Shown here piece after piece: positions 953 to 16,870 of a DNA stretch of 22,613 nucleotides. The notes under the pieces are model-generated. The model had not been told where the DNA came from, ran no database searches, and saw only the letters and a program-made list of their open reading frames with translations. Each line of letters opens with the position of its first letter. Position 1 is the stretch's first letter. The position numbers and the translations under genes were made by a program. Source of the stretch: Octopus sinensis (Eukaryota); NCBI RefSeq assembly GCF_006345805.1, contig NW_021836891.1:1-22613 (forward strand), written 5' to 3'.

Positions 953-1367
953 ATGATAATGCATATATGCCTGAACATACGTATTCATAATATATACGTA
1001 TCATGTACAATATCTACAAACGTAATATGTATATAAATTATATATGTAAAATATATATATATATAATATTTATATAAATATATATATTATACATAATATA
1101 TGAACAAACACATGCTCGCGCGTGTGTGTATTTCTCGCGCTCGGAATTTCATTGCAGTTTCCAAAACAGTACACCTATAAAAGGACTTTTTTCCTCCAGA
1201 TGATAAACTGCAGCTTCTGGCTTTTCAACGACACATTAAATATGTCAGATAAATAAAATATTTTACTCTATAAATTCTTCTATTGTATGATAGAAATTTT
1301 AATTCAGCTGTTGTGGCCTCATTACAAATCAATGTCTCGTTTGTACATCGTCTGGATATCCTTCAGA

Positions 1368-1457
1368 CTGGTGGACTCGATTTAGTTTCGTAAGTAACAT
1401 ATGTTCGTGACAATGACATGTCGCAACTTCGACGAAATGTACCTCTTCAGTCTCCCA
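1368..1457 (-). ncRNA. Hammerhead-like motif, kind 1 (decayed)
   Basis: Minus strand: CTGAAGA (1450-1444), long stem II (GTACATTTCGT...ACGAACATATGTTAC), GAAAC (1389-1385), T-AAATCG-A, GTC (1376-1374). Core is intact but stem I pairs poorly. Confidence 0.5.
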
Positions 1458-1598
1458 TAACTTCCAAGGTGATCTCATTTCGACTAGCTTTGCAGTATAT
1501 TATGCCCAAAAAGTCTATTAAGGGATTTTATCGGACGATAAACTGCAGCTGTTGGCTTGTCAGGGATCCACTTACAACAAGTATGTTTTATATATCTA

Positions 1599-1983
1599 CT
1601 AGCAGTATCGCCCGGCGTTGCTCGGGTTTGTAAGGGAAATAACTATATAAGCATTTTTAGAGATGTAAAGTATAATAACCATCTCAATATGGCTAACCAC
1701 AAAGGGGGGGGTGTACTGTAGCTTTTTGCGTTCTGAGATTTAATAATAAAAAACAGTAATATAAAATATGCCAAAAATGCATTAATTATGGGAAGATTGA
1801 TGGTAATTTTTTTTTTAATCGTAGACTCATCGTAGACGCGCGCTAATACCCAGAAAGGCTCGATATGAATCACGACTATTAGACACCCGGTTTTGGTTAA
1901 ACTGCACCGCAAAATGTGGGAGTAGTTAGGAATCTAAATCGTAGGAGACAGACAGCACACATCCTCACTTTTATATATAAAGA
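1599..1983 (-). mobile_element. Non-autonomous Helitron, 385 bp
   Basis: Minus strand starts TCTTTATATATAAAAG and ends with hairpin CCCGAGCAACGCCGGG followed by CGATACTGCTAG; inserted between A and T with no target duplication. Confidence 0.88.
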
Positions 1984-2020
1984 TATAAAGCAAATAAGTA
2001 ACAAGGATTCCGGGTACTAG

Positions 2021-2107
2021 TACATTACGGCCGTTTCAGGCGGCTCCATTGAAACGATCAATGCAAGCATTCCATCCATTTGAATTACACCGCCTTTCTC
2101 TGAGGCA
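2021..2107 (-). ncRNA. Hammerhead-like motif, kind 2 (minimal type I, decayed core)
   Basis: Minus strand: TGCCT-CAGAGAA-AGGCGG...CCGCCT-GAAAC-GGCC-GTA-ATGTA. Stem II is closed perfectly and loop III is palindromic, but the CUGANGA box is mutated. Confidence 0.65.
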
Positions 2108-2446
2108 TAAGAACATATAGGCTTTTTAACACACAGAACACTCCATTATATTTTCTTTAGCAAATTTTTCACCAGAACTAGAGAATAAAAGAATTACATG
2201 ACTGTTGCTTTTATTGTAGCAGAATGAACTTAGGGAGAAAATACCCAACTATAATTTGGAGTGGCCAAAGAGAATAACAATGGGGGTCAGGCGATGTTAA
2301 TAAAGCTACGTTTATCTTTCTCCTTATCACAATCAAAAGATTTAATGCCGCTAGTATTCTAGGGCCACTAAAAGTTAAAACCACTTTATAGACGTTTTGG
2401 GTATAATATACTGCAAAGCTAAACGAAATGAGATCACCCTGGCAGT

Positions 2447-2540
2447 TACGGGTAACTGAAGAGGCACATTTCATAGTCGTTGCGACATGTCAATGTCACG
2501 AAATTATCATCAGCAACTAGACTTAAATGTCAAATCCCAA
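2447..2540 (+). ncRNA. Hammerhead-like motif, kind 1 (decayed)
   Basis: CTGAAGA at 2456-2462, hairpin ACATT/GTCG-ttg-CGAC/AATGT, GAAA at 2500-2503, GTC at 2529-2531; inverted homolog of 1368-1457. Confidence 0.4.
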
Positions 2541-2796
2541 TGGTTTTAATTCTTAATAGATGTAAAATACCAGCTGCATTAGATCTTTTGATTGTGATAA
2601 GGAGAAAGACAAATGTAGGTATATTACCATCTCTTGACCCTTATTGTTATTCTCTTCTGCCATTCCAAATTATATTTGGGGTATTTTCTCCCTAAGTTCT
2701 GCTACAATATTGCAAAAGGCATGTAATTCTTTTATTCTCTAGTTATAATGAAGAATTTGCTAAAAAAATTATAATGGTTTATCCTGTATGATCTTA

Positions 2797-2883
2797 TGCA
2801 TGCGAGGAAGGCGGTGCATTTCAAATTAATGTAATGTTTACACTGATCGATTAAAAGCAGTCGCCTGAAACGGCCGTAATGCA
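2797..2883 (+). ncRNA. Hammerhead-like motif, kind 2 (minimal type I, decayed core)
   Basis: TGCAT-GCGAGGA-AGGCGG...TCGCCT-GAAAC-GGCC-GTA-ATGCA. Stem I (TGCAT/ATGCA) is perfect; the core is 2 substitutions from CTGAGGA. Confidence 0.68.
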
Positions 2884-3153
2884 CTAATACATAGACATCC
2901 TTGTTACTTATTTGCTTTTTATTCAACTTACTTCAAGCTGTGAGGATAATACCGGACTGACTTGGTGACTCATCCTAAGTACCTAATTCAACTGAATCTT
3001 AATTATTTCTTGAGCGCGCGCGCGTATGTGTGCGTGTATGCAGTGGGGAAAAGTATGTGTGTGAGCATGTACGTATGTACTTATATATGTATGTATACAC
3101 GTGAATTTATAAAAATGTCTTCATATGTATCTATGAGGCAGGGAGTACATGAA

Positions 3154-4100: not shown

Positions 4101-4853
4101 CAACAAAGAGACACAGACCGACAGGGAAAAAGAAAAAGAGAAGAATAGTTCAATCCACAGGGTTTTCCATACAATCTGTAAATCCGAGGAAAATCGGATT
4201 AAATCACAATTCACTTTTGAACACCGTGAAAACAACTTTATTCGGGTTTAATATCTTCAAATAAATTTTACGTTTCATTATAGTTCTTTACACACACATA
4301 CACACACACTCACACACACGCACACATACACGAATTTACGAATGCCTCCGTGTTGCGTGTGTAAGAATGAGGTTAAAGACAGAGGGAGAGAGAGCGGGGA
4401 GGGATACCAGTTCATTAACGAATGTGACAATTGCAGTTTATTGGACTTGAAAGTGAAACTGACAATTTAACTTGTCCTAATAGTTTGTAAATTTTACGAG
4501 GACTGTTATGTAAATGTCAACTCTTAGTGAAACGGAATACATCATTACAACAATTGGCAATACGAATTAATATGTCTCTTCAGGCTACAAGCAAAAAGAT
4601 GAGTTTTCTTAAATGATTGTTAGATGTATGATATTTGAAATGGCCATATAATTAGCTCTGGATTCGCCTACCTTTGTACGGATAAAATGACTTTCCCTTA
4701 GAAAGGCAAACTATTATTACAAGTTGAAATTTTGAGGGAATTGAGGTTTATTATTATTGTCGTTGCAACCCGTTTCGACTTTATGAGGTTTATATTATTC
4801 TCTTGAAAGTTCTTGGACGCATTGAGAATTTTTCATATGTATGTTTAGGATCA

Positions 4854-5083
4854 TTTCTTTTTCTTTTATATGTTTCAGTCATTTGACCGCGACCATGCTG
4901 GAGCACCGCCTTTAGTCGAGCAAATCGACCCCAGGACAATCTTTATAAGCCTAGTACTTATTCTATCGGTCTCTATTGCCGAACCGCTAATTGACAGGGA
5001 CGTAAATACGCCAGCATCAGTTGTCAAGCGATGTTGTGGGGACAAACACAGACACACACACATATACACACACACACACACAT

Positions 5084-5124
<41 letters not shown>

Positions 5125-5278
5125 CGACGATCTTCTTTCAGTTTCCGTCTACCAAATCCACTGACAAGGCTTTGGTCGGCCCGAGGCTAGAGTAGAAGAT
5201 ACTTGCCCAAGGTGCCACGCAGTGGGACTGAACCCGGAACCATGTAGTTGGTAAGCAAGCTACTTACCACACAGCCAC
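4854..5278 (-). mobile_element. Composite tRNA-derived SINE (family B) with internal microsatellite
   Basis: Minus: head GTGGCTGTGTGGTAAG...GGTTCCGGGTTCAGTCCC (A/B boxes), body to GGAAACTGAAAGAAG, then (TA)n(TG)n, then GCGGTTCGGCAA...GATAGAATAAGTAC and tail GGCGGTGCTCCAGCATGG...TGACTGAAACA. Homologous to 8661, 15135 and 15905. Confidence 0.92.
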
Positions 5279-5280
5279 CT

Positions 5281-7162: not shown

Positions 7163-7364
7163 GCTTACGAACCACATGGTTCCGGGTTCAGTCCCACTGC
7201 GTGGCATCTTGGGCAAGTGTCTTCTACTTTAGCCTCGGGCCGACTAAAGCCTTGTGAGTGGACTTCGTAGACGGAAACTGAAAGAAACCTGTCGTATATA
7301 TGTATATGTGAGTGTGCGTTTGTGGTAAGCAAGCTACTTATCTCACAGCCACTCCTGCGCCTAT
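7163..7364. mobile_element. Rearranged family B SINE 5' half (7163-7322 plus, 7323-7364 minus)
   Basis: Plus part runs from GCTTACGAACCACATGG to the microsatellite. The missing first ~40 nt follow in reverse orientation (TGGTAAGCAAGCTACTTATCTCACAGCCACTCCTGCGCCTAT). Confidence 0.88.
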
Positions 7365-8100: not shown

Positions 8101-8660
8101 AAGTGAGTATATACAAGTATATATGTATGAAAGTATTTAGGATATATTTCAAATGTATCCCTGTTCTGAATTCATACCGGTATCTGTCAATGTGACAGGA
8201 TTCTATCGGTATAAACACGACAGCTCTGGGGAAATAGGGATATGCGAATCAGTTAGCGGATGTGTGTGTGTGTGTGTGTGTGTGTGTATCTGTGCATATG
8301 TAGATGAACTTGCTCTCGTGTAATGGGTTCACACACGAGTGTGTGTGTGTGTGTGAATGGTTACCTATTCGTTGTGATAGACATATAGAAATAGGTATTT
8401 GGGGAGAAAGAAGTAGATAGAGAAAGATAGTCTGAAATAGTGAGAGGAATACAGAGACAATTGCGAATGTTAAGGATGTATATCTATCTTTCAGTAAGCC
8501 TAACTAGGACTTAGTCGTCCATTTCTTTTAGATTGACAACGTAAGTACTTCGAAACAGAAATCAAGTCCATTGCAATAAGCATTCCCCTCTGCAATGTAA
8601 GGACGTGTGTGTATGAATGTATGTATGTATGTATGTATGTATATATGTATATATGTATGT

Positions 8661-8827
8661 ATAGGCGCAAGAGTGGCTGTATGGTAAGAAGCTTGCTTCC
8701 CAACCACAAGGTTGCAGATTCAGTTCGACAGGTCATGGCACCTTGGCAAGTGTCTTCTACTATAGCCTCGGACCGACCAAAGCCTTGTGATTGAATTTGG
8801 TAGAAGGAAACTGAAAGAATCTCTTCG

Positions 8828-8862
<35 letters not shown>

Positions 8863-9203
8863 TTTGATTTTGATTTTGATTTTTCCAGTTTCAGCTAATG
8901 AGCTGTGACCATGCTGGGGCACCGCCATTATGTATGTATATATATATGTATGTGTGTGTCTGTGTGTGTGTGTGTATGTGTGTGTGTGTGTGTGTGAGTG
9001 TGTGTGTGTGTGTCTGTATTTGTGCCCCCAACATCGCTTGGTATGTTTACGTCCCCATTACTCAGGCGTTCAGAAAAAGAGACCGATAGAATAAGTACTA
9101 GGCATACAAAGAATAAGTCCTGGGTCGATTTGGGCGACTAAAGGCGCTGATCCAGCATGGCCACAGTCAAATGACTGAAACAAGTAAAAGGTTAAAAGAA
9201 GAA
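8661..9203 (+). mobile_element. Family B SINE, full length, with nested insert
   Basis: ATAGGCGCAAGAGTGGCTG head through ...CCAGCATGGCCACAGTCAAATGACTGAAACAAGTAAAAG tail. Confidence 0.92.
8862..8927 (-). mobile_element. Very short 5'-truncated retroelement 3' end (LINE or SINE tail) with (AATCAA)n terminus
   Basis: Minus: TGGCGGTGCCCCAGCATGGTCACAGCTCATTAGCTGAAACTGGAAAAATCAAAATCAAAATCAAAA, inserted within a (TA)n run. Confidence 0.75.
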
Positions 9204-9204
9204 T

Positions 9205-9226
9205 ATGTGTATTATATATATATATA

Positions 9227-9630: not shown

Positions 9631-10054
9631 GCGCATATCCGTTTATTCAGTTAGCTGCGTATTTCATGTGCGTATATGTGCGTGTATGTACATACACATC
9701 TGTTCAGTTAGTTACATAATAAACGAGCGTATTTATAGAACTCCACATCAGAGCGTCATTTCCCTTCAGCTATTCCGTCTAGTGATACTAAGAGAACACT
9801 CCCTAAACCCCCACTCAGCCTGAGATTGCTGTAGACATTTTAACACTCACTTCACCTGACTTTCACTGTTTCAATCAAAATAGTTATCTCTGCTTTTACT
9901 AAAACATTCCTTTCTCTCTTTTCATCATTTTATCATCCTTCTTTTATCATTACTCTGTCATTCAACAGACAAATACAGAGTTACCTCTCCCCCACTTCTC
10001 TCTCTCTTCCTTTCTATCTCTTGTCTTTCTTTCCTCACACACTTATGTCTCTGT

Positions 10055-11664
10055 ATAATATACATAAATATATATATATTTATATATATATACATACATA
10101 CAGACAAAGATATATGTACACACACATACACACACATATATATACATACACAGAGACATATAGATATATATATATATATATACATATACACACGCATATA
10201 TATACATGCATATATACACATGCATATATATATACACATACATACATATATATACCATATATTGTACCATATATTATCATATATATATACATACACACAT
10301 ATACATATATATATAAATATATTATACACAATATACAATATATATAGATATATATATACACACATAAATCCATACACTATATACATACTATATATACATG
10401 CATATATACTACATATAATCATACATACATATATCATACATAATACATACATACATATATACATACATATATATATAATATACATATTACATAAATACAT
10501 ACATACATACACTACATATATACGCTACATATATACATACATACATACATAATACATATATACATACATAATATATATATATACATACATATATGCATAC
10601 ATACCATATGTAACTACCATATATACATATATAATAATAATGTGCATACATTATATATACATACATATATGTATACATATATGCATACATACCTATATAC
10701 ATACATACATATATATATAATATATATATATACATACATATATACATACAAACAATATGCATACAAACATATATGCCATATATATATATATATATAATAT
10801 ATATATATACTACATAGGTCTGTACATATATATATACATACATATATATACCTACATATATATACATACATATATATATACCTATATATATACAGACATA
10901 TATATACATACATAGATGCTAACATACCCATATATCATACATATATATATACATACATATATATATATATTCCACATACATCTATAATCACAAAACATAT
11001 GTCATACAAACATATATGCATATATATATATATCTATTCTATACAAAACATATATATATACATACATATATATTACCTACATATATACATACAAACATAA
11101 TGCATACAACACATATGCATATATAGTATATAAATATCTATATATATATACATACATATATATATACATATATATATACATACGTATATATACATACATA
11201 ACTATATACATACATAATATATACATATATAATATACATACATATATATATACATACAATATATATATACATACATATACCTATATACATACATAAATAC
11301 ATATATATACATACATATATATATAAATACATATATACATACATATATATATACTACACATATATATAATACATATATAATATATATAAATATATATACA
11401 TATATATACATATATATATATACATACATATACATTTAAATATATATATATATACCTATATGTATATATATATATATATGTACATACATAAAATATGTAT
11501 ATATATACATACATAAAATATATACATATCATAATATATATATTTACATATAAATATATATATACATATAATATATATTATACATATAATATATATATAC
11601 ATATAAATATATATATACTATAATATATATATACATATAATATATATAATATACATATAAATAT

Positions 11665-11695
<31 letters not shown>

Positions 11696-11920
11696 CAAAG
11701 AAATATATATATATATACATATAAATATATATATATATATACATATAAATATATATATAATTACATATAAATATATATCTATATATATACCATCTAAATA
11801 TTATATATTACCTATAATATATATATATATAAACATATAAATATCTATATATAAACATATAAATATATCTATATTTACATATAAATATATATATTTATAC
11901 ATATAAATTTATATATATAC

Positions 11921-11985
<65 letters not shown>

Positions 11986-12039
11986 ATATATAAGTAAATT
12001 TTCCATGTTAACGGTAAACAAAGGATAATTCATTCATCT

Positions 12040-15134: not shown

Positions 15135-15526
15135 CTCTTTTACTTTTTTCAGTCATTTGACTGTGGCCATGCTGGAGCACCGCCTTTAGTCGAGCGAATA
15201 GATCCCACGACTTATTATTTGTAAGCCTAGTACTTTCTCTATCGGTATCTTTTGCCGAACCGCTAAGTTACGGGGACGTAAACACACCAGCATCGGTTAT
15301 CAAGCGATGTTGGGGGGACAAACACAGACACACAAACATGTACACACACATACATAAATATACATATATACGACGGGCTTCTTTCAGTTTTCGTCTACCA
15401 AAACCACTCACAAGGCCCGAGGCTATAATAGAAGATACCTGCCCAAGCTGCCACGATGAGGGACTGAACCCGGAACCATGGGGTTGGTAAGCAAGTTACT
15501 TACCACACAGCCACCCCTGTGCCTAT
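15135..15526 (-). mobile_element. Family B SINE, full length
   Basis: High similarity to 4854-5278 over its length. Confidence 0.93.
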
Positions 15527-15904
15527 AGGCATATGTGCAAATGATTTTCATTTTGCCTCATAATTCAAGGAGAGAACAGGTGTTATGCTTTATATAAGAG
15601 TTGATAGAAATGCATATATTTCCACTTTGCACAGCAATGAGCTAACGATATATATAATTGCACACACACACACACACACACACATACGCATATATATGTG
15701 AATACTTATACACACACGCGTATATATACTTATATATATATATGTTTGCATGTGAGTGTGTTTGTGCATATGCGCGCGTGTGTGTGTGTATGCATGTGTA
15801 TGAGCAAATATGTATATTTGAGTGAGTCAAACAGCAATGAAATCTTCAGGATACTGCAGACACTCATTTAAAAGCCAGAACAAATACATTCAGGGAAATA
15901 AAAC

Positions 15905-16075
15905 ATAGACGCAGGAGTGGCTGTGTGGTAAGCACTTCGCTTACCAACCACATGATTTCGGGTTCGGTTCGACTGCACATGGCAACTTGAGTAAATGTCT
16001 TCTACTATAGCCGCAGGCCGAACAAATCCTTGTGGGTGGATTCGGTAGAGGTAAACTTAAAGAAACCTGACGTAA

Positions 16076-16124
<49 letters not shown>

Positions 16125-16320
16125 TGTGTGTCTGTGCTTGTCCCCCCAGCGTTGCTTGTTGGTGTGTTTACGTCCCCATGAGTTAGCGGTTCGGCAAAAG
16201 AAACCAATAGAATAAGTACCAGGCTTACAAAGATTAAGTCGTGGGGTCCGTTTGTTCGACTAAAGGCGATGCTCCAGCATGACCACAGTGAAATGACAGA
16301 AACAAATAAACAACAAAAGA
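15905..16320 (+). mobile_element. Family B SINE, full length
   Basis: ATAGACGCAGGAGTGGCTGTGTGGTAAG head, internal (TG)n, tail GGCGATGCTCCAGCATGACCACAG...GAAACAA. Confidence 0.92.
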
Positions 16321-16870
16321 ATATGATGGCCCCTAAGCCTAACAAAATGGCGGTTGGTCAGAATACGTTTGCTCTGCCGGAGCAGAGAAGGAAGAACAGC
16401 AACTCCAGTTATTGTTTTCTTTTCACAATCTATTTGCGAAACTATTTTAATCGCCATATTTTCGTTTCCATGGCTATTTGTATATAAATTATTTTTCTCT
16501 AAATGCCTCTAACAGTTGCCTTGACTATAATTACTGTTAAACACTTCTTTCTCTCGATATATCAAAGCTGTCTGCCTTTCTATCCATCCATTCATTTCTA
16601 TCTTCGTAAAGTTTGGCATCGGGCCATTCTATCCATATTCATACCCCTCTCACTCCGTATCTAACTGTTTATTCAGCCATCTAACACAACAGATATCTCG
16701 GCTGTTTATCTACTTATCTCATATCCTAACTTAGTGTTTTATCGTATCTATCTAAGCCGCTCTTTTTTTCTTTCGTTTTGTTGTCTCTGTCTCCCTTACT
16801 TTTCCTCTCAATAGGTATATATATATATCATCATCTATGTAACTCATCACTGCTTTTTCCTCTTCCTCTC

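What the first reader, a model, noticed from the sequence alone, without database searches (positions are those of the whole stretch)
2021..2883. Two mirror copies reconstruct a minimal hammerhead: TGCAT-C(T)GAGGA-AGGCGG...CCGCCT-GAAAC-GGCC-GTA-ATGCA
Seen: each copy has different core mutations (CAGAGAA vs GCGAGGA), but stems I and II and GAAACGGCCGTA are retained, so the inferred ancestor is a canonical core with a GUA cleavage triplet. Established: a very short stem III with a palindromic loop (GGCC) is typical of PLE minimal hammerheads, which are reported to cleave as dimers. Unusual here: about 46 nt sit inside stem II. Both present copies are probably inactive.
Basis: partly seen in the sequence, partly recalled or inferred. 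Interest (0 to 1): 0.75.

Follow-up and report, generated by a model that had tools for sequence, protein, structure and literature searches.

The report
Long-armed hammerheads of Penelope-like retrotransposons
These two mirror-image sequences are the decayed, likely inactive 3' ends of one Penelope-like retrotransposon insertion, and each carries a hammerhead-ribozyme motif with an unusually long second arm, a form that matches about 14,000 places in this genome, is predicted to cut RNA in pairs, and is too long for the published search pattern.

Summary
The inverted copies (1983-2385 minus, 2501-3011 plus, 79% identical) are 5'-truncated 3' ends of one old retrotransposon insertion, and only one arm carries the ~90-nt tail. 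Upstream, other copies encode RT and a GIY-YIG-type endonuclease with Hydra-clade motifs. Each arm holds a type I hammerhead with palindromic stem III. The 46 nt extend stem II into a long hairpin with compensatory changes.

Intact-core patterns with 50-80 nt in stem II number 14,217 (control 37); those with 8-38 nt number 8,231. Listed Hydra-clade hammerheads have short stems II.

One correction: the source of this subfamily had CCGAGGA (U4C; C in 34 of 42 copies, with CpG decay), not CTGAGGA. The canonical core belongs to sister families. Both window copies break the C3-G8 pair and are likely dead. Cofolding gives the double hammerhead for 4 of 5 copies; cleavage was not tested.

This is a new variant of a known kind. 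Open leads are the amplified U4C core and an AAUAAA/AUUAAA hexamer 22-26 nt before the cut site. The scan earlier noted Athena-type hammerheads in another genome, not this family.

The parts
1983..2385 (-). Left arm: 5'-truncated 3' end of the Penelope-like element, short end (no tail)
2021..2107 (-). Left hammerhead motif; core CAGAGAA (position 4 = A, G8>A), cleavage-position A at 2026; stem I with one mismatch
2376..2502 (.). Spacer between the arms: inverted copy (86%, 127 nt, no gaps) of flank 1404-1530; not part of the element family
   Evidence: junctions covered by contigs of two runs
1404..1530 (.). Target-flank DNA that is the likely template of the spacer; part of an old, unrelated low-copy repeat
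   Evidence: after the self hit, the best genome hit is the spacer (86%); others 67-90%, shorter or over other parts of the query
2501..2922 (+). Right arm: 5'-truncated 3' end of the same element family
2797..2883 (+). Right hammerhead motif; core GCGAGGA (C3>G; position 4 = C as in the subfamily source)
2809..2866 (+). Extended stem II, 58 nt: basal helix, A/U-rich middle helix, apical 7-bp hairpin
2850..2855 (+). ATTAAA hexamer in the 3' strand of stem II, 23 nt before the cleavage position (possible polyadenylation signal, untested)
2870..2878 (+). Palindromic stem III ACGGCCGT and cleavage-position A
2923..3011 (+). PLE 'tail', about 90 nt, on the right arm only
   Evidence: 3' ends of 94 copies cluster at 2900-2939 (48) and 2990-3019 (35)

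Best explanation
The two mirror copies are decayed 3' ends of one insertion of a Penelope-like retrotransposon, likely of the Hydra clade, and each carries a likely inactive type I hammerhead whose stem II is predicted to form a ~58-nt hairpin and whose intact relatives are predicted to cleave as dimers. Shown: repeat family, upstream RT and endonuclease remains on the same strand, two 3' end classes, covarying stems, palindromic stem III, and C at core position 4 in the subfamily. Inferred, insertion: the element protein nicked both target strands and reverse-transcribed from two start sites about 45 and 130 nt downstream of the cut site (as shown for the anole element, PMC11167929). The two truncated cDNAs were joined head to head, one after copying 127 nt of the left flank. 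Inferred, ribozyme: in the source RNA, two hammerheads pair their 8-nt palindromes into shared stems III and cut after GUA, slowly or with protein help. The long stem II is a selected RNA structure, most likely a binding or chaperone site for the element's own protein. The U4C source core implies that this lineage amplified with weak cleavage.
For: Family: 552 exact motif copies; 1,435 candidates for the 390-nt arm, 40 scored, dispersed, 75-83% identical over near-full length. Coding link: natural copy L290 holds RT thumb, endonuclease and the whole right arm in order on one strand, about 1.8 kb apart; L289 holds N-terminus, RT and endonuclease with an inverted truncated arm at its 5' end. In 11 of 20 loci fetched for long endonuclease ORFs, a long-stem hammerhead lies 0.6-1.2 kb downstream on the same strand. 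Clade motifs: CxCX5C in 25 of 25 endonuclease matches; only one Cys between the GIY and YIG equivalents in 24 of 25; DKT in L187/L188. These match the Hydra definition. Structure: on 26 aligned copies, 91.9% of cells pair and 13 of 20 pairs change on both sides; slid controls give 29-51%. RNAalifold alone recovers stem I, the apical hairpin and stem III. Loop III is palindromic in 15 of 17 four-nt loops from loci chosen by protein. Dimer: cofold minimum is the double hammerhead for 4 of 5 sequences. Tail: 12 of 13 distinct inverted pairs have one short and one long end.
Against: No cleavage was measured. Pfam does not recognise the protein: GIY-YIG E 0.016, below cutoff, in 1 of 4 fragments, and no RT family in 2 of 2 long ORFs. 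Clade assignment rests on motifs and on an eye comparison with the published alignment, not on a tree with named references. The 26 aligned copies were hand-picked, related, and 24 were chosen for an intact core; two of the five shuffle measures were not extreme (50/500 and 36/500). Stem II of the right window copy folds only modestly (z -1.7). L225 did not cofold into the double hammerhead. Several of the 29 clusters of long matches have stem I of 2 bp or less or no stable fold, so 14,217 counts pattern matches, not working ribozymes. The protein-binding role of stem II has no direct support.
Confidence: 0.88

Rival explanations
1. The long stem II is selected because it hides a polyadenylation signal (AAUAAA/AUUAAA) placed 22-26 nt before the ribozyme cut, so that folding chooses between polyadenylation and read-through to the reverse-transcription start sites. 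This concerns the function of stem II; the element identity is unchanged.
For: 21 of 26 aligned copies carry one of the two commonest poly(A) hexamers (recalled) at that distance, alternating between both forms; shuffled stems give 3%.
Against: The copies are kin, so this is one or a few events. The hexamer can be explained as an A/U helix strand. Representatives of unrelated long-stem families such as L073, L089 and most copies of the AAGCTATA family lack it.
Confidence: 0.15
2. The motif is no longer a catalyst in this subfamily, or in the whole long-stem group. It is kept only as a protein-binding fold, and cleavage is dispensable.
For: U4C was fixed in a source that amplified and diversified. 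About 31 of the first 100 listed copies of a second family also have C4 (counted by eye). Ribozyme mutants did not block insertion of the anole element in vitro.
Against: Canonical-core matches outnumber U4C matches 14,217 to 766 (control 319). Stems I and III and the GUA triplet stay intact in the U4C subfamily. A viroid U4C variant keeps enough activity in vivo.
Confidence: 0.2
3. The pair is a fold-back or MITE-type DNA transposon with ~400-nt terminal inverted repeats, and the hammerhead likeness is incidental.
For: Long inverted arms around a short spacer.
Against: Most copies are single and 5'-truncated with fixed 3' ends; spacers differ at each locus; upstream sequence encodes RT and endonuclease; stems covary.
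Confidence: 0.02
4. A non-autonomous non-LTR retrozyme (tandem short monomers, circular RNA) rather than the end of a coding element.
For: Type I hammerhead with a short palindromic stem III; tandem hammerhead units occur in other loci (L184, L185).
Against: The window has no tandem monomer, and the family extends more than 2 kb upstream into an ORF.
Confidence: 0.03

Closest known systems
Hydra-clade Penelope-like elements and their hammerheads (Craig et al. 2021, PMC8557442), e.g. Hydra-1_Obim and Penelope-13_HM
   Same: C-terminal endonuclease, CxCX5C linker, no CCHH, DKT, sense-strand hammerhead near the 3' end, (TA)n targets, inverted 5'-truncated copy. Basal stem II of several families here resembles the TGCC/GGCA type listed for Hydra elements.
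   Different: Listed Hydra hammerheads have stem II plus loop of about 10-24 nt, against 48-79 nt here. They mostly have 3-4-bp stems III with 1-3-nt loops, against a perfect 8-nt palindrome. None has U4C. Elements there are generally under 3 kb; here the 3' UTR alone is 0.6-1.9 kb and the linker is Asn-rich. The tail is ~90 nt against the usual 30-40.
Metazoan PLE minimal hammerheads (Cervera and de la Pena 2014, PMC4209133)
   Same: Type I, short stem I, palindromic stem III, thousands of dispersed truncated copies, opposite-strand pairs 100-700 bp apart, dimer model.
   Different: Helix II there is 6-8 bp. The published descriptor allows 3-7 bp plus a 3-10-nt loop, so it cannot match these. 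The 10.1-11.1 pair is often A-U or unpaired here rather than G-C.
Selaginella PLE-X1 hammerheads and Naiad 'HHR_half_core' cases (PMC8557442 File S2 and Methods)
   Same: Precedent for about 30-35 nt inside stem II, and for core halves 35-50 nt apart.
   Different: Isolated, non-canonical cases in other clades; no conserved covarying long hairpin or large family was described in the parts read.
Viroid U4C hammerhead variant (cited in Perreault et al. 2011, PMC3088659)
   Same: Same core change.
   Different: There it is a viroid variant with low in vitro but sufficient in vivo activity; here it was carried by an amplifying retrotransposon lineage.

Membership tests
Type I hammerhead ribozyme (window copies) | Core CUGANGA with C3-G8 pair | tested here: not met
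   GCGAGGA and CAGAGAA; each breaks C3-G8
Type I hammerhead ribozyme (related genomic copies) | Core CUGANGA ... GAAA ... UH | tested here: met
   286 with GGCC loop; 14,217 with RRYY loop
Type I hammerhead ribozyme (related genomic copies) | Three stems with covariation | tested here: met
   Stem I 4 of 4 pairs and basal stem II 4 of 5 pairs with two-sided changes; selected, related sequences
Type I hammerhead ribozyme | Site-specific self-cleavage after NUH | not testable with these tools
   Only contigs, no raw RNA reads
Rfam hammerhead families | Covariance-model match | tested here: not met
   No hammerhead family at E<=5 in the window; intact relatives were not scanned
PLE minimal hammerhead (Cervera 2014) | Short palindromic stem III allowing a dimer | tested here: met
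   15 of 17 palindromic; cofold 4 of 5
PLE minimal hammerhead (Cervera 2014) | Stem II 3-7 bp with 3-10-nt loop | tested here: not met
   58 nt in window; 48-79 nt in 95 distinct matches to a 45-85-nt pattern
Hydra-clade PLE | RT followed by C-terminal GIY-YIG-type endonuclease | tested here: met
   L181, L182, L289, L290; Pfam below cutoff
Hydra-clade PLE | CxCX5C linker; CCHH absent | tested here: met
   25 of 25 and 24 of 25; the regex required CxC-X3-7-CP
Hydra-clade PLE | DKT in place of DKG | tested here: inconclusive
   DKT in sister-family L187/L188; decayed to QKT in L293 of the window's lineage
Hydra-clade PLE | Insertion into (TA)n | tested here: met
   (TA)3 at 29 of 47 short and 24 of 35 long ends, background 17%
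Hydra-clade PLE | Generally shorter than 3 kb | tested here: not met
   About 1.9 kb from ORF end to 3' end in L290 plus an ORF of more than 2 kb; a tendency in the paper, not a strict criterion
Hydra-clade PLE | Phylogenetic placement with named references | not tested
   Only compared by eye with the published alignment
PLE insertion structure | Inverted 5'-truncated copy; tail on one end only | tested here: met
   12 of 13 distinct pairs
Neptune-clade PLE | CX2-5CxxC linker and CCHH motif | tested here: not met
Non-LTR retrozyme | Non-coding tandem monomers | tested here: not met

The most novel reading that the evidence does not exclude
The most abundant hammerheads of this genome are an overlooked class whose long stem II is a regulatory module: it binds the retroelement protein and masks a poly(A) signal placed just upstream of the ribozyme cut, gating cleavage, polyadenylation and reverse-transcription start. 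U4C then arose independently in two amplifying lineages because fold matters more than cleavage speed.
Probability: 0.15. Interest if true: 0.72.

Novelty: new variant of a known kind. Interest (0 to 1): 0.45.

Why it matters
What hammerheads do in endonuclease-encoding PLEs is still stated as unclear (PMC8557442), and cleavage was dispensable for insertion in vitro in one element (PMC11167929). This genome supplies a natural series to test that: short and long stem II, canonical and U4C cores, and near-intact ORFs (L181, L182). It also shows that published descriptors and Rfam miss a form that outnumbers the short form here (14,217 against 8,231 pattern matches), so animal ribozyme counts may be too low. 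The window copies themselves are fossils without likely function.

Tried and rejected
Neptune clade: my first guess; rejected once the CxCX5C linker and missing CCHH were checked against the paper.

MITE/fold-back and retrozyme readings: rejected.

Canonical CTGAGGA as direct ancestor: rejected.

Searches that led nowhere: Rfam scan gave only microsatellite-driven miRNA and other chance hits. Protein search with the endonuclease alone among longer proteins found none of 68 candidates. PDB sequence search gave only E 0.18 to a group II intron maturase RT.

Expression: no RNA holder listed for a 501-nt intact-core copy, and all four runs laid on the window were contigs. Neither says anything about transcription or cleavage.

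Flank capture as a general rule: I saw no second clear case among 22 other loci, so it is a local event.

Not done: R-scape (not available); covariance model; structure and complex prediction; searches of other animal genomes (none held). Lunse et al. 2017 on dimeric PLE hammerhead variants was not available, and Arkhipova et al. 2017 was not read; either may already show long-stem or U4C variants.

Full report
OBSERVATION. The window is a whole 22.6-kb contig of a 2.72-Gb animal genome, rich in microsatellites. That the host is a cephalopod is my inference and is not established. The mirror copies exist as described and belong to longer inverted arms, 1983-2383 and 2541-2922, 79% identical. 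The right motif has stem I TGCAT/ATGCA, core GCGAGGA, 58 nt of stem II, GAA, the palindrome ACGGCCGT and A2878. The left motif (2107-2021, minus strand) has core CAGAGAA and one stem I mismatch. Each breaks the C3-G8 pair, whose single mutants abolish cleavage in the anole element, so both are likely inactive. Contigs of two public runs bridge the internal junctions.

A DISPERSED REPEAT. The 15-nt motif has 552 exact copies, control 0, and 286 places have an intact CTGANGA 54-62 nt upstream, control 0. Walking upstream through natural copies led through a long A/T-rich UTR into endonuclease and RT remains on the hammerhead strand. One natural copy, L290, holds RT thumb, endonuclease and the whole right arm in order. 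L289 holds N-terminus, RT and endonuclease with an inverted truncated arm at its 5' end. Relatives with long open frames exist: L181 with 709 aa and L182 with 787 aa. Of 20 loci fetched for long endonuclease ORFs, 11 have a same-strand long-stem hammerhead 0.6-1.2 kb downstream. Pfam does not name these proteins above cutoff. Four unnamed homologues score E 3e-45 to 8e-28, and the ESM Atlas places the RT part next to clusters where 12-73% of members carry RVT_1 or HTH_animal.

CLADE. Craig et al. define Hydra by a C-terminal endonuclease, a CxCX5C linker, no CCHH, DKT, hammerheads and (TA)n targets. Here CxCX5C was found in 25 of 25 endonuclease matches, a single Cys inside the GIY-YIG core in 24 of 25, DKT in L187/L188, and (TA)3 at 53 of 82 short or long 3' ends against 17% background. 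By eye the RT resembles the published Hydra alignment, including Hydra-1_Obim. No tree with named references was built. The elements are longer than the usual under 3 kb.

ONE INSERTION. The 3' ends of 94 copies fall mainly in two classes, 2900-2939 (48) and 2990-3019 (35); 11 lie elsewhere. In 12 of 13 distinct inverted pairs, the window included, one arm is short and one long. This is the PLE tail, about 90 nt here against 30-40 nt in the paper. In the anole element it arises from two internal reverse-transcription starts, with both target strands cut and extended. I infer the same here. The spacer 2376-2502 is an 86% identical, gap-free inverted copy of flank 1404-1530 and is its best non-self genome hit, so one cDNA likely jumped onto flank DNA before joining. 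I saw no second clear case in 22 other loci. The subfamily tree is star-like with median end branch 0.09: an old burst.

THE LONG STEM II. Intact-core patterns with an RRYY loop number 14,217 for 50-80 nt between the core halves (control 37) and 8,231 for 8-38 nt (control 34); 39-49 nt was not counted. These are pattern matches, not proven ribozymes. Among 95 distinct long matches in fetched loci, 29 clusters formed. The largest fold as long hairpins (best member z -2.7 to -4.6), while several singletons lack stem I or a stable fold. On 26 hand-picked related copies, RNAalifold found stem I, a 7-bp apical hairpin and stem III unaided. With the basal helix added, 91.9% of cells pair, 13 of 20 pairs change on both sides, and slid controls reach 29-51%. 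The tool warns that kinship inflates such scores, and two shuffle measures were not extreme (50/500, 36/500). Stem II alone folds at z -1.7 and -2.3 in the window copies and -2.8 and -3.2 in L243 and L225. Loop III is palindromic in 15 of 17 four-nt loops from loci chosen by protein. Cofolding gave the double hammerhead with an 8-bp shared stem III and open cores for 4 of 5 sequences; L225 was the exception, and monomer minima mispair the core.

CORRECTION: U4C. In 42 distinct subfamily copies chosen by flanking homology, position 4 is C in 34 and T in 6, and the following G is A in 12, rates like those at other CpG sites. Only 4 of 42 have a canonical core. The source therefore read CCGAGGA, and some 'canonical' copies likely arose by deamination. 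C4 occurs in several sublineages. Genome-wide, 766 U4C patterns were found against a high control of 319. A second, unrelated long-stem family has C4 in about 31 of the first 100 of 163 matches listed (counted by eye); its source state is unresolved. U4C is known from a viroid, with low in vitro but sufficient in vivo activity.

MECHANISM. Shown: anatomy, copy numbers, covariation, palindrome, tail asymmetry, U4C. Predicted: dimeric fold. Inferred: cleavage after GUA in tandem or paired transcripts of intact relatives, slow or protein-assisted as reported for other PLE hammerheads, and a long stem II kept as a protein-binding or chaperone site near the reverse-transcription starts. A lead: AAUAAA or AUUAAA lies 22-26 nt before the cut in 21 of 26 related copies (3% in shuffles). 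That is poly(A)-signal spacing (recalled), but the copies are kin and the hexamer can also pair.

WHAT IS KNOWN. PLE hammerheads, palindromic stem III, dimers and opposite-strand pairs 100-700 bp apart are described. The 2014 descriptor allows at most 7 bp and a 10-nt loop in stem II. The Hydra hammerheads listed in 2021 all have short stems II; two Selaginella motifs have 29-35-nt loops. Seven searches showed no paper on long-stem or U4C PLE hammerheads or on such a family in cephalopods, and a 2026 octopus repeat annotation does not mention ribozymes. The library is limited to open papers.

PAPERS SEEN. PMC4209133: parts 1-2 of 4, passages, and hits in 2 supplement files (file 1 not searched). 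10.1101/2021.04.23.441226: passages and section 11. PMC8557442: passages, supplement hits and supplement part 2 of 59. PMC11167929: passages and part 1 of 2 of the main text. PMC6765202, PMC3088659, PMC13282606: passages. 10.64898/2026.07.22.740005: part 1 of 5, supplements not seen. Lunse et al. 2017: nothing beyond its citation; it or Arkhipova et al. 2017 (not read) may bear on novelty. Earlier scan notes: none for this genome or sequence; one Athena-type note from another genome.

VERDICT. Real, correctly recognised as a PLE hammerhead, dead at this locus, and part of a very large and apparently uncatalogued long-stem-II variant in Hydra-type elements, with a U4C source core. New variant of a known kind; interest 0.45.

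Noticed in passing
window 1586-1990: Very high-copy ~400-nt repeat abutting the left arm in an AT tract; its ends resemble Helitron/Helentron-type non-autonomous elements (recalled, untested).
   Followed up: partly
window 1160-1570: Old low-copy repeat (40 genome matches, mostly 67-80%) with an internal ~50-nt near-repeat at about 1183-1235 and 1520-1570; unidentified.
   Followed up: partly
window 4850-5280, 7163-7324, 8660-9207, 15136-15527, 15905-16327: Two further short dispersed repeats of 150-190 nt, each in about five copies in both orientations; probably SINEs.
   Followed up: no
window 10054-11992: A 1.9-kb degenerate (TA)n tract, 10-20% GC.
   Followed up: no
L184:195-1950: Four tandem ~567-nt units each with a hammerhead (32-nt stem II): retrozyme-like array.
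   Followed up: no
L185:1061-1750: Two tandem 594-nt units with a hammerhead that has a 76-nt stem II and no loop III (GAAACGTA).
   Followed up: no
L272, L276, L281-L288: Second long-stem hammerhead family (stem II starting AGCTATA, loop AGCT), 163 pattern matches, about 31 of 100 listed with C at core position 4; parent element not identified.
   Followed up: partly
L233-L236, L240: Very abundant young short-stem family (16-nt stem II), often as inverted pairs 40-1,700 nt apart; likely a recently active PLE.
   Followed up: no
L181:4324-6450, L182:2481-4841: Near-intact Hydra-type ORFs with a ~170-residue Asn-rich insert between RT thumb and zinc-finger linker, built from (AAT)n-like repeats.
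   Followed up: partly
L001-L004 (G000:C1:8244500-8245350): An inverted hammerhead pair duplicated in tandem as a ~557-nt unit, 95% identical.
   Followed up: no
window 2850-2855 and relatives: AAUAAA/AUUAAA hexamer 22-26 nt before the cut site in 21 of 26 related copies.
   Followed up: partly
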